IMG/VR virus record: IMGVR_UViG_3300044630_000587
Location: 937-64,936 of that record
DNA length: 64,000 bases
Reading direction: 5' to 3' (one strand)
From: a virus
Lineage: Duplodnaviria; Caudoviricetes
Part shown: positions 3,972-15,007 of the stretch, piece after piece
Layout of the letters: the number at the start of each line of letters is the position of its first letter
Numbering within the stretch: the stretch's first letter is position 1
Notes under the pieces: model-generated
Told to the model about the DNA's origin: nothing
The model's database searches: none
What the model saw: only the letters and a program-made list of their open reading frames with translations
Translations under genes and position numbers: made by a program

Positions 3972-4070
3972 ATGTTAGAGATTGTGGTTGTATTTTTTAT
4001 GGCAAGTGGTGTATGTGCATGGGGCTTCATTGCCTATGTATTGATTAACTTAATATGGGGAGATAAATGA
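3972..4070 (+). CDS. 32-aa single-pass membrane protein (not in ORF track)
   Basis: GGAG SD; MLEIVVVFFMASGVCAWGFIAYVLINLIWGDK; TGA overlaps ATG at 4067. Confidence 0.6.
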   Translation: MLEIVVVFFMASGVCAWGFIAYVLINLIWGDK

Positions 4071-8322: not shown

Positions 8323-9050
8323 TACCGAACTGTGAATTAGTTAAAGTAGATGGCACACAGTTTCTTGTATTCAAAGGGCAGGATTTAATATCAAACCACT
8401 TGAAGAAAGAACTGTATGAGAATGACATCCATCAGCTTGCGTTAAAGATACTAATGGGTAAGCCTGATGGAGTAGTGCTAGACATTGGTGCGAACCTAGG
8501 TACGTTCTGTGTACCACTTGCACGAAAGACCCCTAAGCTGAAGTTCCATGCGTTTGAACCACAACGGATAATTTACTATCAGTTATGCGCCAATACGATT
8601 ATTAACGGGCTGTATAACATCGAGTGCCATCATTTTGGGCTATCAAACGACCGTAATGTTTTGCTGTTAGATGTGCCTGACTACGCTACCGAAACAAACA
8701 TCGGTGCGTTTAGTATTGATAAGGAAGTTCGTAAGAATGAGTACGAATGTAAGACAACGAGTACTAAAGAAGCTATAACTATTTTCCCGTTGGATGAGGG
8801 GGGATATAAGAACGTACGGCTAATCAAGATTGATGTAGAGGGTCATGAGTTAGAGGTGTTGCAGGGTGGTATCGAAACAATCAAGCGCAACAACTACCCA
8901 CCGATTATCTTTGAAGCGTGGACATGGAAGCCTTGGTATCAGGAGAAGCGTAAAGCGTTGTTCGATTACCTAGAAGGTCATGGATACGAGATTACAGAAC
9001 TAGGTCAAAACAACTTAGCACGACACCCTAAACACGAGGAAATGAAATGA
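8319..9050 (+). CDS. FkbM-family SAM-dependent methyltransferase
   Basis: VLDIGANLG, AFEP, IKIDVEGHELEVLQG. Confidence 0.9.
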   Translation: MIPNCELVKVDGTQFLVFKGQDLISNHLKKELYENDIHQLALKILMGKPDGVVLDIGANLGTFCVPLARKTPKLKFHAFEPQRIIYYQLCANTIINGLYNIECHHFGLSNDRNVLLLDVPDYATETNIGAFSIDKEVRKNEYECKTTSTKEAITIFPLDEGGYKNVRLIKIDVEGHELEVLQGGIETIKRNNYPPIIFEAWTWKPWYQEKRKALFDYLEGHGYEITELGQNNLARHPKHEEMK

Positions 9051-9244
9051 ACGACCAAGACTTGAGAGATTGCTTTGCGATGTTTGCGATGGTGGGTTTG
9101 TTTATGAAAGGTATTGGGTTAGATGATGAAGGCGCTAGACAGTGCTGGGATGCGGCTGACCGAATGCTCGAAGCCCGTAACAAAGTAGAAGATGACGGTG
9201 GTATTACCACAATTAAAAAGAGGAAGTATGTTAGAAAAGATTGA
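9047..9244 (+). CDS. small hypothetical phage protein
   Basis: LRDCFA...ADRMLEAR motif; GAGG SD; ATGA coupling. Confidence 0.75.
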   Translation: MNDQDLRDCFAMFAMVGLFMKGIGLDDEGARQCWDAADRMLEARNKVEDDGGITTIKKRKYVRKD

Positions 9245-9901: not shown

Positions 9902-10076
9902 GGTAACAGAAGTAGAAATTAAAGAAACCCTATTTAATATCGGCAAACTTGCTGGAAGAATAAGTAGTGACGAGGGCAAGCGTCTGCTAATGCTTATGGA
10001 AACGGTGGTAGGGTATATGAACCAATTAGAAAAGCAGTTAAACAAAGATGACTTTGACATGGATGGTCGTTGCTGA
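9894..10076 (+). CDS. small hypothetical protein
   Basis: 60 aa, overlaps its neighbours in operon order. Confidence 0.6.
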   Translation: MTEVTEVEIKETLFNIGKLAGRISSDEGKRLLMLMETVVGYMNQLEKQLNKDDFDMDGRC

Positions 10077-11908
10077 TGAACCTAATAACGATTGACTTTG
10101 AAACCTTTTATGAGAAGTCTACCTTTAGCTTATCGAAGCTGACTACCGAGGAGTATGTTCGGGATGATCGCTTTGAGGTGATTGGTGTAGCCGTTAAGGT
10201 TAATGATGGTGAGACCGAGTGGGCGAGTGGTACACACGAACAGCTTAAGAATTGGCTCAAGGGATTTGACTGGGCGAACTCAATGGCGATTGCACACAAC
10301 ATGATGTTTGACGGATTCATTCTGTCAGAACGGTTTGGCATATTCCCTAAAGTCTATGCAGATACCCTGTCTATGGGTCGAGCCATTCATGGTGTCGAAG
10401 TTGGCGGTAGCCTAGCGGTGCTTGCGCAACGATACAACCTAGGTGTTAAGGGTGACGAGGTTATCGCCGCTTCAGGAAAAAACCGAGTGGACTTCACAGA
10501 CGAAGACCTTGATAGGTACGGCGACTACTGCGTGAACGACGTAGAACTAACCTATAAGTTGTTCAGTGCGATGATTAAGAAGGGCTTTCCGAAGACCGAG
10601 ATGAAGTTGATTGACTTGACTACTCGTATGTTCACACGACCCCTGCTTGATCTAAACCTGAACCTGTTGGAGATGCACCTAGCAGATATTAAGGAGAAGA
10701 AGGATAACCTGCTGATTCTTGCAAACATTGAGGACAAGGGCGAACTCGCTTCAAACCCGAAGTTTGCTGAGTTATTAAAGCAGTTCAATGTACCTGTGCC
10801 GATGAAGATTAGCCCGACTACGGGTAAAGAAACATTTGCGTTGTCTAAGAACGACGAGGAGTTCAAGGCTTTGGCTGAACATCCTGATGTACGGGTACAG
10901 GCTTTAGTTGCGGCGAGGCTGGGTACAAAATCAACCCTTGAAGAAACTAGGACAGAGCGATTCATCGGAATCGCCAAGCGAGGACTGATGCCAGTTCCCT
11001 TAAAATACTATGCGGCGCACACAGGACGGTGGGGTGGTAGTGATTCCCTAAACTTGCAGAACTTGCCAAGCCGAGGGGACAACGCAGGGAAGTTAAAGAA
11101 GGCTATTGTTGCACCCGAAGGCTACTCGGTTATCGATGCCGATTCGAGTCAGATTGAAGCACGGGTCTTAGCGTGGCTGGCTGGTCAAAACGATTTAGTT
11201 GAAGCGTTTGCGAAAGGTGAAGATGTATACAAGATCATGGCATCAGCTATCTATGGTAAGAGCGAAGCAGAAGTTTCAAAGGAAGAACGATTTGTGGGTA
11301 AGACGACTATCCTTGGGGCTGGCTACGGCATGGGCTCGCAGAAATTCAGGGCACAGCTTAAAACGTTCGGGGCTGAAATTAGTGAAGACGAAGCACGGCA
11401 TATCATTCAAATCTATCGGGAAACTTATCCGAGTATCGTAGGACTATGGCGACAAGCGCAGTTGGCGCTGGAAGCAATAAGCAAGGGCTACACAACATCT
11501 TTGGGTAAGGCGGGTGTACTTGGTATCGAGCCTAACGAGAAAGGTATCAGACTACCGAGTGGCTTACTGATGCGGTACGACCAGCTTGTTGCGGTGCGAG
11601 ATGAGAAGGGTATGCAGTACCAGTACAAGACTCGCTATGGTTGGAATAAAATCTACGGCGGTAAAGTTATCGAGAACGTATGCCAAGCTATCGCTCGTTG
11701 CATCATTGGTGAGCAGATGATTAAGATTGCCAAGCGTTACGATGTTGTACTAACAGTACACGATGCGATTGCCTGTGTAGTAAAAGACGAAGAAGTAAAA
11801 GAAGCCCAAGCCTACATTGAAGAGTGCATGAAGTGGACACCTGAGTGGGCAAATGGATTACCAGTAAGTTGTGAATCAGGATACGGAAAGAGTTATGGAG
11901 ATTGCTAA
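10076..11908 (+). CDS. polA: family A DNA polymerase with 3'-5' exonuclease
   Basis: Exo I IDFET, exo II AHN..FD, exo III Y...D; HTGRWGG, NLQNLP, motif A DSSQIEAR, motif B RFVGKTTILGAGYG, motif C TVHDA. Confidence 0.95.
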   Translation: MNLITIDFETFYEKSTFSLSKLTTEEYVRDDRFEVIGVAVKVNDGETEWASGTHEQLKNWLKGFDWANSMAIAHNMMFDGFILSERFGIFPKVYADTLSMGRAIHGVEVGGSLAVLAQRYNLGVKGDEVIAASGKNRVDFTDEDLDRYGDYCVNDVELTYKLFSAMIKKGFPKTEMKLIDLTTRMFTRPLLDLNLNLLEMHLADIKEKKDNLLILANIEDKGELASNPKFAELLKQFNVPVPMKISPTTGKETFALSKNDEEFKALAEHPDVRVQALVAARLGTKSTLEETRTERFIGIAKRGLMPVPLKYYAAHTGRWGGSDSLNLQNLPSRGDNAGKLKKAIVAPEGYSVIDADSSQIEARVLAWLAGQNDLVEAFAKGEDVYKIMASAIYGKSEAEVSKEERFVGKTTILGAGYGMGSQKFRAQLKTFGAEISEDEARHIIQIYRETYPSIVGLWRQAQLALEAISKGYTTSLGKAGVLGIEPNEKGIRLPSGLLMRYDQLVAVRDEKGMQYQYKTRYGWNKIYGGKVIENVCQAIARCIIGEQMIKIAKRYDVVLTVHDAIACVVKDEEVKEAQAYIEECMKWTPEWANGLPVSCESGYGKSYGDC

Positions 11909-12083: not shown

Positions 12084-12286
12084 ACGACCCAGTAAATCAC
12101 CCGAAGCATTACACTGACCACCCTAGCGGTATCGAGTGCATACAGATTACAGAACACATGGGGTTCAATCTAGGTAATGCGCTCAAGTACATTTGGCGAT
12201 GTGACCTTAAAAAGGATGCCGTTGAGGACTTGTGTAAAGCCCGTTGGTACATTGATCGTGAAATTGCTAAGAGAACTAAACAATGA
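12080..12286 (+). CDS. DUF3310 (SaV / T7 gp1.7-like) protein
   Basis: DPVNHPKHY...IECI...GNALKYIWR...KARWY. Confidence 0.9.
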   Translation: MNDPVNHPKHYTDHPSGIECIQITEHMGFNLGNALKYIWRCDLKKDAVEDLCKARWYIDREIAKRTKQ

Positions 12287-12951
12287 CTAAACCTATCTCA
12301 TGGTCGTACTCCAGCATTAAGTTGTTTGACCAATGCCCTAAGAAGTACTATCACTTACGGGTTATCAAAGACGTTAAAGAACCACCGACGGACGCAATTA
12401 CGTATGGCAAGGAGTTCCATGAAGCGGCTGAGTTATACATCAGAGATGGTAAACCTATACCCCCACAGTTTGCCTTTGCTAAAAACGCACTGGATAACCT
12501 TAAGCAGTTAAAGGGTGAGAAGTTATGCGAACTTGAGATGGGTTTGACCGAGAACTTAGAGCCATGTGGGTTCAAAGACCCTAACGTGTGGTGGCGAGGG
12601 GTAGCCGACCTAGCCATCATTGACGGCACAAAGGGTAGATGCCTAGATTACAAGACAGGAAAGTCTGCCAAGTATGCCGATACTGACCAGCTAGAACTGA
12701 TGGCACTAGCCATGTTTAAGCACTTCCCACAGCTAACCGAGGTGCAAGGAGCCCTGTTTTTTGTCATCAGCAAGAACTTCATAAAGGACTCGTACAAGGC
12801 TGAAAAACAGGATAAGATGTGGACTAAATGGTTGGCAGAGTACAGCAAGATGAAGATGGCTTACGAAAACGATGTATGGAATCCTCGCCCTTCAGGATTG
12901 TGCAAAAAACACTGCCTAGTTATGGAATGCCCGCACAATGGAAGGAACTAA
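12283..12951 (+). CDS. PD-(D/E)XK exonuclease (Cas4/RecB-like)
   Basis: WSYSS...CPKKY, G..FH, D...DYKTG, QL..MA, C-terminal C..HC....CPH cluster. Confidence 0.9.
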   Translation: MTKPISWSYSSIKLFDQCPKKYYHLRVIKDVKEPPTDAITYGKEFHEAAELYIRDGKPIPPQFAFAKNALDNLKQLKGEKLCELEMGLTENLEPCGFKDPNVWWRGVADLAIIDGTKGRCLDYKTGKSAKYADTDQLELMALAMFKHFPQLTEVQGALFFVISKNFIKDSYKAEKQDKMWTKWLAEYSKMKMAYENDVWNPRPSGLCKKHCLVMECPHNGRN

Positions 12952-12953
12952 TA

Positions 12954-13268
12954 ATGCCCTACGTTAATAAACCAAGACCGTACGATAAAGAGTACGACCA
13001 ACAAAAAGCGAGAGGTGAACTACCTAGTCGCATGGAACGTCAACGTGCTCGTCGCAAGATAGACAAGACAGGCAAAGACGCAAACAAAAACGGTGTAGCC
13101 GATAAGCGTGAAGGTAAGGATGTAGCGCACGTCAAAGCGTTGTCTAAAGGTGGTAGTAATAAACACGGTGTTCGTATTGAGTCGCCGTCAAAGAATCGTT
13201 CGTTCAAGCGGGATTCAAAAAGTAATTTAGTTTCAGAAGTAAGTAAAAAAGAAAGAAAAAAGGCTTGA
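12954..13268 (+). CDS. small basic HNH-like protein
   Basis: GKDVAHVKALSKGGSN...NRS; start at 12954 after AAGGA SD. Confidence 0.65.
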   Translation: MPYVNKPRPYDKEYDQQKARGELPSRMERQRARRKIDKTGKDANKNGVADKREGKDVAHVKALSKGGSNKHGVRIESPSKNRSFKRDSKSNLVSEVSKKERKKA

Positions 13269-13292
13269 ACTTTTCTGAAATTGTTGTAATAT
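13265..13292 (+). promoter_or_regulatory. possible sigma70 promoter upstream of the structured RNA and helicase
   Basis: TTGAAC-N16-TAATAT. Confidence 0.45.
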
Positions 13293-13312
13293 AAAAGTTA
13301 CTAGTTTTACAA

Positions 13313-13455
13313 GATGCAAGCGTAAGGTATGAGTGGCGAACATCACGGTTTCATTTCCGTATAAACCATACCAGTCAGCACCATTTCATTTCCTGTGGGG
13401 AACTGACAAACTCGATAGAGCATAGTGGACACCACTTATGCTCTATTTACGCATC
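13313..13455 (+). ncRNA. putative four-way-junction structured RNA with two UUUCAUUUCC loops
   Basis: GCGTAA(13320-25)/TTACGC(13447-52) closes three stems: GGTATG/CATACC, GTCAG/CTGAC and ATAGAGCATA-GTGG/CCAC-TATGCTCTAT. Confidence 0.65.
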
Positions 13456-13468
13456 ACTGGAGAAATAG

Positions 13469-15007
13469 TTGCAAATAATAAATAATAAAATTCTGTTGTT
13501 AAATCTGCGTAACCCTAACAAAGTTACAACGGTAATACCAAAGAGTAAACAACTTGAGGGGAATCAGGTCGCCGTTAACTGGGGCCTAGACGAAGCTCGC
13601 ATACTTAAGAATCTACAAATAAAAAACATCCCATCACCAATTATGGGGCATTACACTTGGCCTGGATTACATAAACCGTTTGACCATCAAAAAACTACCG
13701 CTTCTTTCCTAACCCTACACCCCCGTGCCTTCTGCCTTAACGAGCAGGGTACTGGCAAAACAGGCTCGGTTATATGGGCGGCTGATTACCTAATGAAGAT
13801 TGGGCGACTCAAGCGTGTACTGGTTATCTGCCCCTTATCTATTATGGATTCTGCTTGGCGGGCAGACCTATTTAAGTTTGCCATGCACCGCAAAGTAGAT
13901 ATTGCGTATGGCAGCAAGGAAAAACGGATTCGCATAATTAACTCAGACGCTGAGTTTGTCATTATTAACTATGATGGGGTTGAGATTGTGCAAGAGGAGA
14001 TAGCTAACGGGGGCTTTGACCTAGTAGTTATTGACGAAGCTAACGCATACAAGAATGCCCAGACGACTCGTTGGAAGACACTCAATAAGATATTAAAACC
14101 TGAGACATGGCTATGGATGCTAACAGGTACACCAGCCGCCCAATCCCCTGTGGATGCCTATGGTTTGGCTAAGTTGGTTAGCCCACATAATGTGCCTAGG
14201 TTTTACTCGGCTTTCAAAGACATGGTGATGTACAAGGTATCGCAGTTCCGCTGGGTAAACAGACCCAATGCCGAGAAGATCGTACACGAAGCACTCCAGC
14301 CAGCCATACGGTTTACCAAGGAAGAATGTTTAGACCTGCCTGAGTTGACCTACGTAACCCGTGAAGTCGAACTTACCCCACAACAGAAGAAATACTACGA
14401 GTTGCTACGTAGCAAGTTGGTTGTGTCCGCTGTGGGAGAACAGATTACTGCGGTAAACGCTGCTGTTGGAATGAGCAAACTCCTGCAAATATCTTGTGGA
14501 GCAGTGTATTCGGATTCGGGCGAAACCCTAGAATTTGACATTAAAAACCGTTACAAGGTCATGCGGGAAGTGCTGGATGAGACCAAGCAAAAAGCCCTGA
14601 TATTCGTGCCGTTCAAGAACACCATCGAGATCCTGTCCAAGAAGCTACAAGACGACGGGTTCACAACCGAGATCATCAACGGCGACGTGCCAGCAGGTAA
14701 ACGGGCAGAAATATTTAAAGCCTTCCAAGATACACCCAACCCAAGAATTCTAATCATCCAACCCCAAGCGGCGGCTCATGGAGTCACTTTAACGGCGGCT
14801 GATACGGTTATTTGGTGGGGACCTACCCCAAGCCTAGAAACATACGCTCAAGCCAATGCAAGGGCGCATAGGGCGGGGCAGAGGCATCCAGTTACGGTGG
14901 TGAGATTACAGGGTTCAAATGCGGAGAAACACCTATATAAAATGCTTGACAACCGTATTGACGACCATGTAAAGTTAGTTGAACTTTACAAGAATTTACT
15001 TGAATAA
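13469..15007 (+). CDS. SNF2-family (SF2) helicase
   Basis: EQGTGKT, IDEA, LTGTP, HGVTLT, QANARAHRAGQ; TTG start with GGAG SD. Confidence 0.92.
   Translation: MQIINNKILLLNLRNPNKVTTVIPKSKQLEGNQVAVNWGLDEARILKNLQIKNIPSPIMGHYTWPGLHKPFDHQKTTASFLTLHPRAFCLNEQGTGKTGSVIWAADYLMKIGRLKRVLVICPLSIMDSAWRADLFKFAMHRKVDIAYGSKEKRIRIINSDAEFVIINYDGVEIVQEEIANGGFDLVVIDEANAYKNAQTTRWKTLNKILKPETWLWMLTGTPAAQSPVDAYGLAKLVSPHNVPRFYSAFKDMVMYKVSQFRWVNRPNAEKIVHEALQPAIRFTKEECLDLPELTYVTREVELTPQQKKYYELLRSKLVVSAVGEQITAVNAAVGMSKLLQISCGAVYSDSGETLEFDIKNRYKVMREVLDETKQKALIFVPFKNTIEILSKKLQDDGFTTEIINGDVPAGKRAEIFKAFQDTPNPRILIIQPQAAAHGVTLTAADTVIWWGPTPSLETYAQANARAHRAGQRHPVTVVRLQGSNAEKHLYKMLDNRIDDHVKLVELYKNLLE

What the first reader, a model, noticed from the sequence alone, without database searches (positions are those of the whole stretch)
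13313..13455. Cloverleaf RNA upstream of the helicase with two identical UUUCAUUUCC loops complementary to a start-codon region
Seen: the 200-nt gap folds into a four-way junction closed by GCGTAA/TTACGC with three arms, one of about 14 bp. Two arms display the same 10-mer TTTCATTTCC (13349-58 and 13384-93). The second extends to CATTTCATTTCCT (13382-94), the exact 13-nt reverse complement of AGGAAATGAAATG at 9037-9049, which is the SD and ATG of gene 9047. Similar GAAATG starts occur at 3972, 5006 and 9713. Established: P1/P7 C4 RNA is a processed cloverleaf antisense RNA, and alphaproteobacterial cuckoo RNAs display repeated anti-SD loops. Inference: a second trans-acting antisense RNA. Together with the 19815 element it would form an RNA-based timing circuit. 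It could instead be a cis leader of the TTG-starting helicase.
Basis: partly seen in the sequence, partly recalled or inferred. Interest (0 to 1): 0.78.

Follow-up and report, generated by a model that had tools for sequence, protein, structure and literature searches.

The report
New pseudoknotted RNA before phage helicase
The gap before the phage helicase gene holds a real folded RNA of an uncatalogued family, shared by many uncultivated water phages and some Polynucleobacter bacteria; its function is unknown and it is probably not an antisense regulator.

Summary
The sequence facts hold. TTTCATTTCC occurs at 13349-58 and 13384-93, and the 13-mer at 13382-94 is the exact complement of 9037-49.

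The fold is not a cloverleaf. Comparison with more than 70 related phage contigs shows an H-type pseudoknot (P1, P2). It carries an inserted hairpin (Px) and a two-part arm (P3/P3a) ending in a pyrimidine-rich loop. A separate hairpin (P5) lies before the helicase ribosome-binding site. Covariation is strong: 95-97% of cells are paired, against 30-46% when partners are slid. Rfam 15 has no match.

The RNA lies between an HNH-like gene and replication genes, usually the SNF2 helicase, and is missing from some close relatives. It also occurs once per genome in Polynucleobacter chromosomes. There it ends two unrelated gene modules and often finishes in a terminator-like hairpin, with no gene to regulate downstream.

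The two identical loops are specific to this window. The proposed target at 9047 shows no compensating changes in relatives. Tests for an SD-hiding switch were negative.

Best reading is a self-contained RNA module that binds a factor in trans (confidence about 0.4). A first-reader note flags the same element on other DNA.

The parts
13265..13292 (+). Sigma-70-like promoter candidate: TTGAAC, 16 nt, TAATAT. It overlaps the end of the upstream ORF.
   Evidence: Read from the sequence and scored 8 of 12 by my script. This is below the 9 of 12 threshold of the tool scan, which did not list it. By my script, 25 of 58 distinct upstream flanks scored at least 8 of 12; clear TTGACA/TAGAAT-type examples are L089, L135, L119, L088 and L139. 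Inferred, not shown.
13313..13344 (+). P1 hairpin. GAUG 13313-16 pairs with CAUC 13341-44, and GC 13320-21 pairs with GC 13336-37. Its loop holds the conserved GUAA (13322-25), GGUAUG (13326-31) and AGUG (13332-35).
   Evidence: All 7 P1 pairs change on both sides. P1 is 96.4% paired in A3 and 88.4% in A4. The P1 strands of each sequence are listed.
13326..13331 (+). P2 5' strand (GGUAUG), the pseudoknot partner of 13367-13372.
   Evidence: P2 is 100% paired in A3 and 99.7% in A4. UA changes to CG in 7 sequences and GC to AU in 16. A U-G/U-A wobble position fits the + strand only.
13345..13360 (+). Px hairpin (ACGG / CCGU) with loop UUUCAUUU.
   Evidence: In the window-type alignment 2 of 4 pairs change on both sides and 86.4% of cells are paired. 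The loop sequence is not conserved.
13364..13373 (+). Conserved AAC (13364-66), P2 3' strand CAUACC (13367-72) and the unpaired A13373.
   Evidence: AAC, the two CC and the following AG are invariant columns in A1 and A3. Pairing is shown.
13374..13407 (+). P3/P3a arm. P3 is GUCAG 13374-78 with CUGAC 13403-07. The internal loop is CA (13379-80) opposite GGAA (13399-402). P3a is CCAU 13381-84 with GUGG 13395-98. The pyrimidine-rich loop is 13385-94.
   Evidence: P3 is 100% paired and 4 of 5 pairs change on both sides. P3a is 94.8% paired and all 4 pairs change on both sides. The loop matches the 16S tail better than shuffles across the family but not in the window copy.
13415..13446 (+). P5 hairpin before the SD, 14 bp with one bulge and apical loop ACA.
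   Evidence: 98.7% paired, with 3 pairs changed on both sides, in 11 window-type sequences. It is kept in relatives that lack the pseudoknot domain, such as L001, L042 and L047.
13459..13471 (+). SD GGAG (13459-62) and TTG start (13469-71) of the SNF2 helicase gene 13469-15007.
   Evidence: ORF list. Pfam SNF2-rel_dom and Helicase_C, and PHROG 62 DNA helicase. The SD is predicted 0.76 unpaired whether or not the pseudoknot domain is formed.
9037..9049 (+). AGGAAATGAAATG, the SD and start of ORF 9047-9244.
   Evidence: Exact 13-nt complement of 13382-94. No compensating changes in L143, L144 or L189. Probably not part of the element.

Best explanation
Bases 13313-13407, with the accessory hairpin 13415-46, are this phage's copy of an uncatalogued family of pseudoknotted RNAs.

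Shown:
- The fold. P1 is a hairpin whose loop pairs downstream (P2) to form an H-type pseudoknot. A hairpin, Px, is inserted in the third loop. The P3/P3a arm ends in a pyrimidine-rich loop.
- Conserved unpaired bases: GUAA, AGUG, AAC, A, CA and GGAA.
- The RNA lies on the + strand.
- It recurs in many phages between an HNH-like gene and replication genes.
- It recurs in Polynucleobacter chromosomes at the 3' end of two unrelated gene modules.

Inferred:
- In this window the RNA is transcribed from a promoter at 13265-92 as the 5' part of the helicase mRNA.
- It works as a self-contained RNA module and not as a helicase-specific switch. The pseudoknot is a rigid scaffold that displays the junction bases and the P3a loop to a partner supplied in trans. 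That partner would be a protein or a purine-rich, SD-like RNA stretch.
- In phages the module would act while still part of the mRNA or after being cut out of it.

It is not an antisense regulator of gene 9047. Its two identical loops are a recent peculiarity of this lineage.
For: - Structure. On an unfitted MAFFT alignment of 16 sequences, 97.2% of 351 cells pair and 17 of 22 pairs change on both sides. No shuffle of 500 reaches the paired share or the covariation score. Slid partners give 33.5-46.4%. On 62 distinct CM-aligned sequences, 95.4% of 1344 cells pair and P2 is 99.7% paired.
- No Rfam family matches, at gathering level or at E up to 10.
- Phage context. The helicase is the first downstream gene in 47 of 62 distinct copies by script, and in 3 more that came from the helicase search. 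The others are followed by small ORFs then the helicase, a gp33-like gene and primase, a DNA polymerase or an exonuclease.
- The RNA is optional. In L004 and L013 the HNH-like stop abuts the helicase ATG. L001 and L047 keep only the promoter and P5. Only 15 of 81 helicase sources carry it.
- Bacterial copies. There is one hit per genome in 12 of 151 Polynucleobacter-genus genomes, and 4 more hits appear with filters off. They lie directly after the 200-aa gene of one module or the VIT-VWA gene of another. The next ORF is convergent in 7 of 9 loci. P4 is followed by at least 5 T in 8 bases in 7 of 11 copies, and the tool called it terminator-like in L243.
- The P3a loop is conserved as a pyrimidine stretch. 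Its longest match to the host 16S tail averages 5.6 nt, against 4.2 for its own shuffles and 4.2 for Px.
Against: - No expression data exist, so no RNA end, processing site or partner is known.
- In most phage copies there is no terminator after the RNA. In many, including the type I group, no promoter lies directly before it. A free RNA would therefore need processing.
- The fixed position 35-140 nt before a start codon on the same strand in most phage copies is what a cis regulator looks like.
- The bacterial copies could be co-transcribed 3' UTRs. One of the two loci scanned showed neither a promoter-like nor a terminator-like site.
- The window's own P3a loop matches the 16S tail no better than its shuffles.
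- The sequences are related, so the shuffle controls overstate independence.
Confidence: 0.4

Rival explanations
1. Cis-regulatory leader: a riboswitch or a protein-binding translational operator. The pseudoknot domain would sense a metabolite or a phage protein and set expression of the helicase and the replication operon behind it.
For: - The position and strand relative to the first gene of the replication module hold in 50 of 62 distinct phage copies.
- Many conserved unpaired bases sit at the junctions, as in ligand pockets.
- The 3' part (P4, P5) is variable, like an expression platform.
- In the type I group, by eye, a CUUCCUCCA / UGGAGAG hairpin could compete with the true SD.
Against: - In 7 of 9 bacterial loci the next ORF downstream is convergent, so those copies have no gene on their strand to regulate, and they follow unrelated genes.
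- Predicted SD accessibility is the same with the domain free or formed: 0.46 against 0.42 over 54 sequences, and 0.76 against 0.76 in the window.
- The P3a loop pairs with its own SD no better than shuffled loops do (mean z +0.26, n = 56).
- The downstream gene varies, and the RNA is missing in relatives whose helicase is 86-89% identical.
Confidence: 0.25
2. Self-cleaving ribozyme or another RNA-processing signal that cuts the polycistronic transcript between the HNH-like gene and the replication genes.
For: - The RNA lies between cistrons and is patchily present among close relatives, in phages and in genomic islands.
- It has a compact pseudoknotted core with about 25 conserved bases.
- From my own recall, small ribozymes show the same kind of distribution.
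Against: - No known ribozyme class matches, even at E up to 10.
- By inspection the topology lacks the P3/L3 element of HDV-like ribozymes: only AGUG lies between the P2 5' strand and the P1 3' strand.
- No cleavage data exist.
Confidence: 0.12
3. One reading: a trans-acting antisense RNA whose two UUUCAUUUCC loops pair with the SD and start codon of gene 9047 and with similar start regions.
For: - The 13 of 13 complementarity is real, with 0.12 expected at up to 1 mismatch.
- 12 of 13 bases remain complementary in L143 and L144.
- Pyrimidine-rich loops are typical seeds of sRNAs that target ribosome-binding sites (recalled).
Against: - There is no compensating change. One side changed in L143, the other in L144, and in L189 the target region is unrelated.
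- Loop 1 is different in the closest relatives.
- The target site is already constrained by two overlapping coding ends and an SD.
- Family loops are mostly CCUUUC, which does not match this target.
Confidence: 0.05
4. A single-stranded DNA structure of the + strand, such as a priming or origin signal of the replication module, and not an RNA.
For: The element sits inside the replication module beside the helicase and primase genes. Covariation alone cannot distinguish RNA from ssDNA.
Against: - G-U wobbles are frequent at fixed positions, for example U-G in 38 of 62 sequences at one P2 pair.
- A promoter-like site precedes the element in part of the loci.
- The bacterial copies end in terminator-like hairpins and are unrelated to any replication genes.
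Confidence: 0.04

Closest known systems
Phage T4 gene 32 mRNA leader pseudoknot, an autogenous translational operator (recalled; also mentioned in PMC10690425, passages read)
   Same: An H-type pseudoknot in the 5' leader of a phage DNA-replication gene, upstream of the ribosome-binding site.
   Different: No sequence or family relation. This RNA has extra arms (Px, P3/P3a). The downstream gene varies. The RNA also occurs in bacteria with no gene behind it. No binding protein is known.
preQ1-II riboswitch, an H-type pseudoknot with a hairpin inserted in loop 3 (recalled; review PMC11625349 seen only in the search listing)
   Same: The same topology: a pseudoknot with an embedded hairpin in the third loop, located close to an SD.
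   Different: No Rfam match. The SD is not part of the pseudoknot. No accessibility switch is predicted. Free-standing bacterial copies exist.
P1/P7 C4 antisense RNA
   Same: A phage-encoded structured RNA of about 100 nt that could be cut out of a longer transcript.
   Different: No match to the Rfam model. The fold is a pseudoknot, not a cloverleaf. The proposed target pairing does not co-vary.
Anti-SD-loop sRNAs such as the alphaproteobacterial cuckoo and CcsR RNAs (recalled)
   Same: A C/U-rich loop is displayed on a hairpin. In many family members that loop copies 6-11 nt of the 16S tail.
   Different: One conserved loop, not repeated hairpin units. A large pseudoknot scaffold. No Rfam match. 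No target is known. The window's loop is a poor match to the 16S tail.

Membership tests
C4 antisense RNA (P1/P7) | Match to the curated covariance model | tested here: not met
   Rfam 15 gave 0 matches at gathering score over the whole window. At E up to 10 over 13200-13520 there were only three unrelated weak hits.
C4 antisense RNA (P1/P7) | Loop bases complementary to a target site, kept complementary among relatives | tested here: not met
   In the 3 relatives that hold both regions, there was a one-sided change in L143, a one-sided change in L144 and no target in L189.
Cuckoo-type anti-SD sRNAs | Repeated hairpins with the same anti-SD loop, conserved across members | tested here: not met
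   Only the second loop is conserved. The first differs even in the closest relatives. No Rfam match.
Riboswitch (cis-acting) | Conserved aptamer directly upstream of the regulated gene on the same strand | tested here: inconclusive
   Met in phages, in 50 of 62 distinct copies before the helicase. Not met in 7 of 9 bacterial loci, where the next ORF is convergent.
Riboswitch (cis-acting) | An expression platform whose SD or terminator state depends on aptamer folding | tested here: not met
   The SD unpaired probability is 0.46 free against 0.42 with the domain constrained (n = 54). Loop-to-SD duplexes are no better than shuffled loops. Pseudoknots and kissing contacts are not modelled by these tools.
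Riboswitch (cis-acting) | Specific ligand binding | not testable with these tools
   Needs in-line probing or ITC.
Known self-cleaving ribozyme classes (hammerhead, twister, twister-sister, pistol, hatchet, HDV-like) | Match to a class model, or the nested double pseudoknot of HDV-like ribozymes | tested here: not met
   No Rfam match. By inspection, only AGUG lies where an HDV-like P3/L3 would be.
Terminator-ended trans-acting sRNA (Hfq-type or 3'-UTR-derived) | Intrinsic terminator with a U tail at the 3' end | tested here: inconclusive
   In the bacterial copies, 7 of 11 have at least 5 T in the 8 bases after P4. The tool called P4 terminator-like in L243 but not in L240. The window copy has no such terminator.
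Terminator-ended trans-acting sRNA (Hfq-type or 3'-UTR-derived) | Conserved single-stranded seed with co-varying targets | tested here: inconclusive
   A conserved CUCCUUUC / CCUUUC stretch is present. No target was identified, and the one proposed target does not co-vary.
Type III antitoxin RNAs (ToxI-like) | Tandem repeats of a short pseudoknotted unit next to the toxin gene | tested here: not met
   There is a single CM hit per source. The unit is 100-150 nt long. PADLOC gave no hit for the neighbouring proteins. The tandem-repeat tool was not run.

The most novel reading that the evidence does not exclude
The RNA is a decoy or mimic used in phage-host conflict. The pseudoknot scaffold displays a copy of the 16S rRNA 3' tail (CACCUCCUUUC in L109, CUCCUUUC in the Polynucleobacter copies). 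The mimic could soak up SD-bearing mRNAs, or a factor or nuclease that acts on the 16S 3' end. Bacteria would carry it at the end of island-borne gene modules, and phages would carry it at the head of their replication genes.
Probability: 0.1. Interest if true: 0.85.

Novelty: new variant of a known kind. Interest (0 to 1): 0.7.

Why it matters
This is a well-supported structured RNA family with no relative in Rfam 15. I found no description of it in the papers searched. The supplements of PMC10690425, which list about 10,000 candidate viral RNAs, could not be opened and may include it.

The RNA links uncultivated freshwater and marine phages to a cultivable host genus, Polynucleobacter, so experiments are possible. 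It sits at the head of the phage replication genes, and it also ends two unrelated bacterial gene modules. That combination does not fit the usual riboswitch, leader or sRNA categories.

Whatever it binds, a pseudoknot with about 25 conserved unpaired or junction bases is a good candidate for a new ligand-binding, protein-binding or catalytic RNA.

Tried and rejected
- Rfam at gathering score on the window, at E up to 10 on the gap and at E up to 0.01 on six loci gave nothing usable.
- ARAGORN on the window and on 15 loci found no tRNA or tmRNA.
- blastn of three family members against 50,697 GenBank phage records gave no match.
- Sequencing runs: no RNA holder was listed, and all 24 rows are DNA metagenomes.
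- P3a loop pairing with its own SD was rejected. Mean z was +0.26 against shuffled loops, and 3 of 56 had z below -1.
- An SD-accessibility switch was rejected at the level of nested folding.
- A kissing contact between the P3a loop (CUUUC) and the P4 loop (GAAAG) in the type I group is possible by eye as 5 bp. Both sides are nearly invariant. The one variant P4 loop (GAUAGA in L228) is not compensated, and the type II and window types lack P4. Left open.
- An alternative pairing of GAUGC with the distal GCAUC before the SD is 86.8% paired but shows no covariation and is no better than shuffles.
- HDV-like topology, stop-codon readthrough or frameshift stimulation (the element is 45 nt or more from the upstream stop) and integron attC sites (single copy per genome) were considered and dropped.
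- The neighbouring proteins gave nothing. Pfam, NCBIfam, PADLOC and the protein Atlas gave no function for the HNH-like phage protein or for the 150-aa and 200-aa bacterial pair. No protein is shared between the bacterial loci and the window, apart from one chance-level blastp hit.
- Literature. Passages of PMC10690425, of the bioRxiv preprint 10.64898/2026.10.21.760802 and of PMC8632094 were read with 'find'. None describes this element. Supplements were not available.
- Not used: the search for homologous proteins, the search of protein representatives, structure prediction, fold search, complex prediction, the metagenome-contig scan and the tandem-repeat tool.

Full report
**Setting.** The window is a 64.9-kb virus record of a lake-water phage.
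- Around the finding lie a family A DNA polymerase (10070-11908), a PD-(D/E)XK exonuclease (12283-12951) and a 146-aa ORF with an HNH-like signature but no family hit (12828-13268).
- A 200-nt gap follows, then an SNF2 helicase with a TTG start (13469-15007), a Pam3 gp33-like gene and a DUF927 primase/helicase.

**Observation.** The sequence facts are right.
- The two 10-mers and the 13-nt complement at 9037-49 exist and exceed chance.
- The + strand of the gap folds better than its shuffles (z -3.45).
- Rfam 15 and ARAGORN find nothing.

**Relatives.**
- The helicase protein found 598 related stretches in IMG/VR, and the best 80 were kept. Only some have a long gap before the helicase. Those share GUAAGGYRUGAGUG and AACCRYRCCAG.
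- An exact pattern built from these two blocks found 59 more viral stretches.
- A covariance model, R1, was built from 16 diverse sequences. It hit the window and 14 of the 80 helicase loci at E up to 1.4e-4.
- R1 hit all 63 sources I had pre-selected for carrying the pattern or an earlier hit. It also hit 8 of 80 loci fetched through the upstream methyltransferase.

**Structure.**
- The strand just 5' of GUAAGG always pairs with the strand just 3' of GAGUG (P1), with many compensating changes.
- GGYRUG therefore sits in the P1 loop, and its pairing with CRYRCC downstream (P2) makes an H-type pseudoknot.
- Between P1 and the 3' strand of P2 lies a variable hairpin, Px.
- After one A comes P3. 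P3 has an internal loop (CA opposite GGAA) and an outer hairpin, P3a, with a pyrimidine-rich loop.
- On the unfitted MAFFT alignment, 97.2% of cells pair and 17 of 22 pairs change on both sides. Slid partners give 33.5-46.4%. No shuffle of 500 reaches the paired share or the covariation score, although 13 of 500 reach the count of pairs.
- On 62 distinct CM-aligned sequences, 95.4% of cells pair. By helix: P2 99.7%, P3 100%, P3a 94.8% and P1 88.4%. Here 210 of 500 shuffles reach the count of pairs, which is saturated.
- A fixed U-G/U-A position in P2 fits the + strand.
- Subtypes differ after P3. Type I has GACA plus a hairpin with loop GAAAGA (P4). Type II has CGACUA plus a CCCCC-GUAA-GGGG hairpin. 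The window type has neither.
- All phage types then have a hairpin before the SD. In the window this is P5 (13415-46), which is also found in relatives that lack the pseudoknot domain.

- The GGTATG/CATACC helix, the GTCAG/CTGAC helix and the long hairpin are correct.
- The closing helix GCGTAA/TTACGC is 75.8% paired among 11 window-type sequences and its middle pair is mostly unpaired. It has no counterpart in the other subtypes. In L012 the same 5' bases instead co-vary with the P1 extension (read).
- The element is therefore a pseudoknot and not a cloverleaf.
- Loop 1 (UUUCAUUU) is not conserved. L143, L144, L034, L123 and L131 have GAGUGACAUC there and L189 has GUGACAUU. The identity of the two loops arose by a few substitutions in this lineage.

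**Context in phages.**
- The order HNH-like gene, then RNA, then replication genes is general.
- The helicase is the first downstream ORF in 47 of 62 distinct copies by script, and in 3 more that came from the helicase search.
- In four loci (L089, L117, L135, L139) one small ORF comes first and the helicase follows. In L112 two small ORFs come first.
- L088 lacks the helicase and the next operon genes follow. L095 has a polymerase-like gene downstream. In L140 the RNA lies between a polymerase-like gene and an exonuclease-like gene.
- The RNA is optional. In L004 and L013 the upstream stop touches the helicase ATG. L001, L042 and L047 keep the promoter and P5 only.
- A sigma-70-like promoter directly upstream scored at least 8 of 12 in 25 of 58 distinct flanks. 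The type I group has none.

**Context in bacteria.**
- The pattern scan of one genome per species found two true copies, in a Fluviibacter MAG contig and in the 799-kb contig of an isolate of Polynucleobacter.
- R1 then hit 12 of 151 genomes of that genus, once each. One of these, G123, scores 24 bits in what reads as coding sequence and I take it as false.
- In the order, 3 further genomes of 150 were hit, one of them weakly.
- The bacterial copies are full type I RNAs.
- They lie 50-100 nt after one of two gene modules. One is a pair of unknown proteins of about 150 aa and about 200 aa, the second with predicted membrane helices by eye. The other is a MerR regulator plus a 775-aa VIT-VWA protein.
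- The 200-aa protein occurs in 14 of 151 genomes and the VIT-VWA protein in 10 of 151.
- With filters off, the RNA was found directly after the gene in 4 more of the 10 regions fetched.
- The next ORF downstream is convergent in 7 of 9 loci.
- P4 is followed by at least 5 T in 8 bases in 7 of 11 copies. The tool called it terminator-like, with a promoter-like site just upstream, in L243. It found neither in L240.
- Neighbours include a toxin-antitoxin pair, a restriction enzyme, an SNF2/NOV_C protein and a DUF3857-transglutaminase gene.

**Tests of mechanism.**
1. Antisense target. The three relatives that hold both regions show no compensation.
2. Anti-SD loop against its own SD. Duplex energies are no better than for shuffled loops, with mean z +0.26.
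3. SD switch. Predicted accessibility is unchanged.
4. 16S mimicry. The host 16S ends in GGAUCACCUCCUUUCU. The P3a loop's longest match averages 5.6 nt against 4.2 for shuffles. It is at least 6 nt in 29 of 62 sequences and 11 nt in L109, but only 4 nt in the window, which is no better than shuffles.
5. Expression. No RNA run is listed.

**Reading.** The family behaves as a self-contained RNA.
- The same core appears in operon leaders, between cistrons and as a terminator-ended unit after unrelated genes.
- I therefore favour an autonomous module that binds a partner in trans through its junction bases and P3a loop (about 0.4).

**Known systems.**
- By function it most resembles pseudoknotted phage leaders (T4 gene 32) and sRNAs that display C/U-rich loops.
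- By topology it resembles preQ1-II.
- It is a member of none of these. See the membership table.

**Novelty.**
- No Rfam family matches. There was no blastn match in GenBank phage records, and no description in the papers I could search.
- A first-reader note of this scan (e1-6263591) flags the same element before an SNF2 helicase in another genome. That note is unchecked.
- I rate it a new family within a known kind, namely pseudoknotted structured RNAs of phages and bacteria, with function open.

Noticed in passing
L031 about 2870-2950; L040, the last ~120 nt before the helicase start: In these relatives the slot between the HNH-like gene and the helicase holds segments that look tRNA-like by eye. 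L031 has a 7-bp acceptor-like stem, a T-arm-like hairpin and a 3' ...CCCCACCA. ARAGORN and Rfam find nothing.
   Followed up: partly
window 13415-13446; L001, L011, L014, L017, L042, L047, L049 just before the helicase SD: The pre-SD hairpin, with an apical GUGG-ACA-CCAC or GUGG-GAGA-CCAC, is conserved even where the pseudoknot domain is absent. It is a separate element of the helicase leader, perhaps a 5' stabiliser or operator.
   Followed up: partly
window 12828-13268 (+): The upstream ORF carries an HNH-like signature (DVAHVKALSKGGSN ... SKNRSFKRDSKSNLVSEVSKKERKKA) that is conserved in all relatives. It has no Pfam, NCBIfam or PADLOC hit and only the PHROG of unknown function, phrog_4590. 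It overlaps ORF 12283-12951, so its real start is probably later.
   Followed up: partly
L236-L244 (Polynucleobacter chromosomes): Two unrelated gene modules each end with the RNA: an unknown 150-aa plus 200-aa pair, and MerR plus a VIT-VWA protein. RNA subtypes follow the module type. The region lies near conserved 95-aa and 102-aa genes and next to defence-like genes.
   Followed up: partly
window 13314-13325: A tiny reading frame, AUG-CAA-GCG-UAA, lies inside P1 and its loop. It is present only in the window clade and has no SD.
   Followed up: no
L196, L188, L177, L156, L160 (about 1-1.5 kb after the methyltransferase): A second helicase subfamily (about 522 aa, starting MEIVEN...) is preceded by a variant of the RNA. 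The variant has P2 GGCAUG/CAUGUC, a much enlarged P3a region containing CUUCUCCUUGG, and the type II P4.
   Followed up: partly
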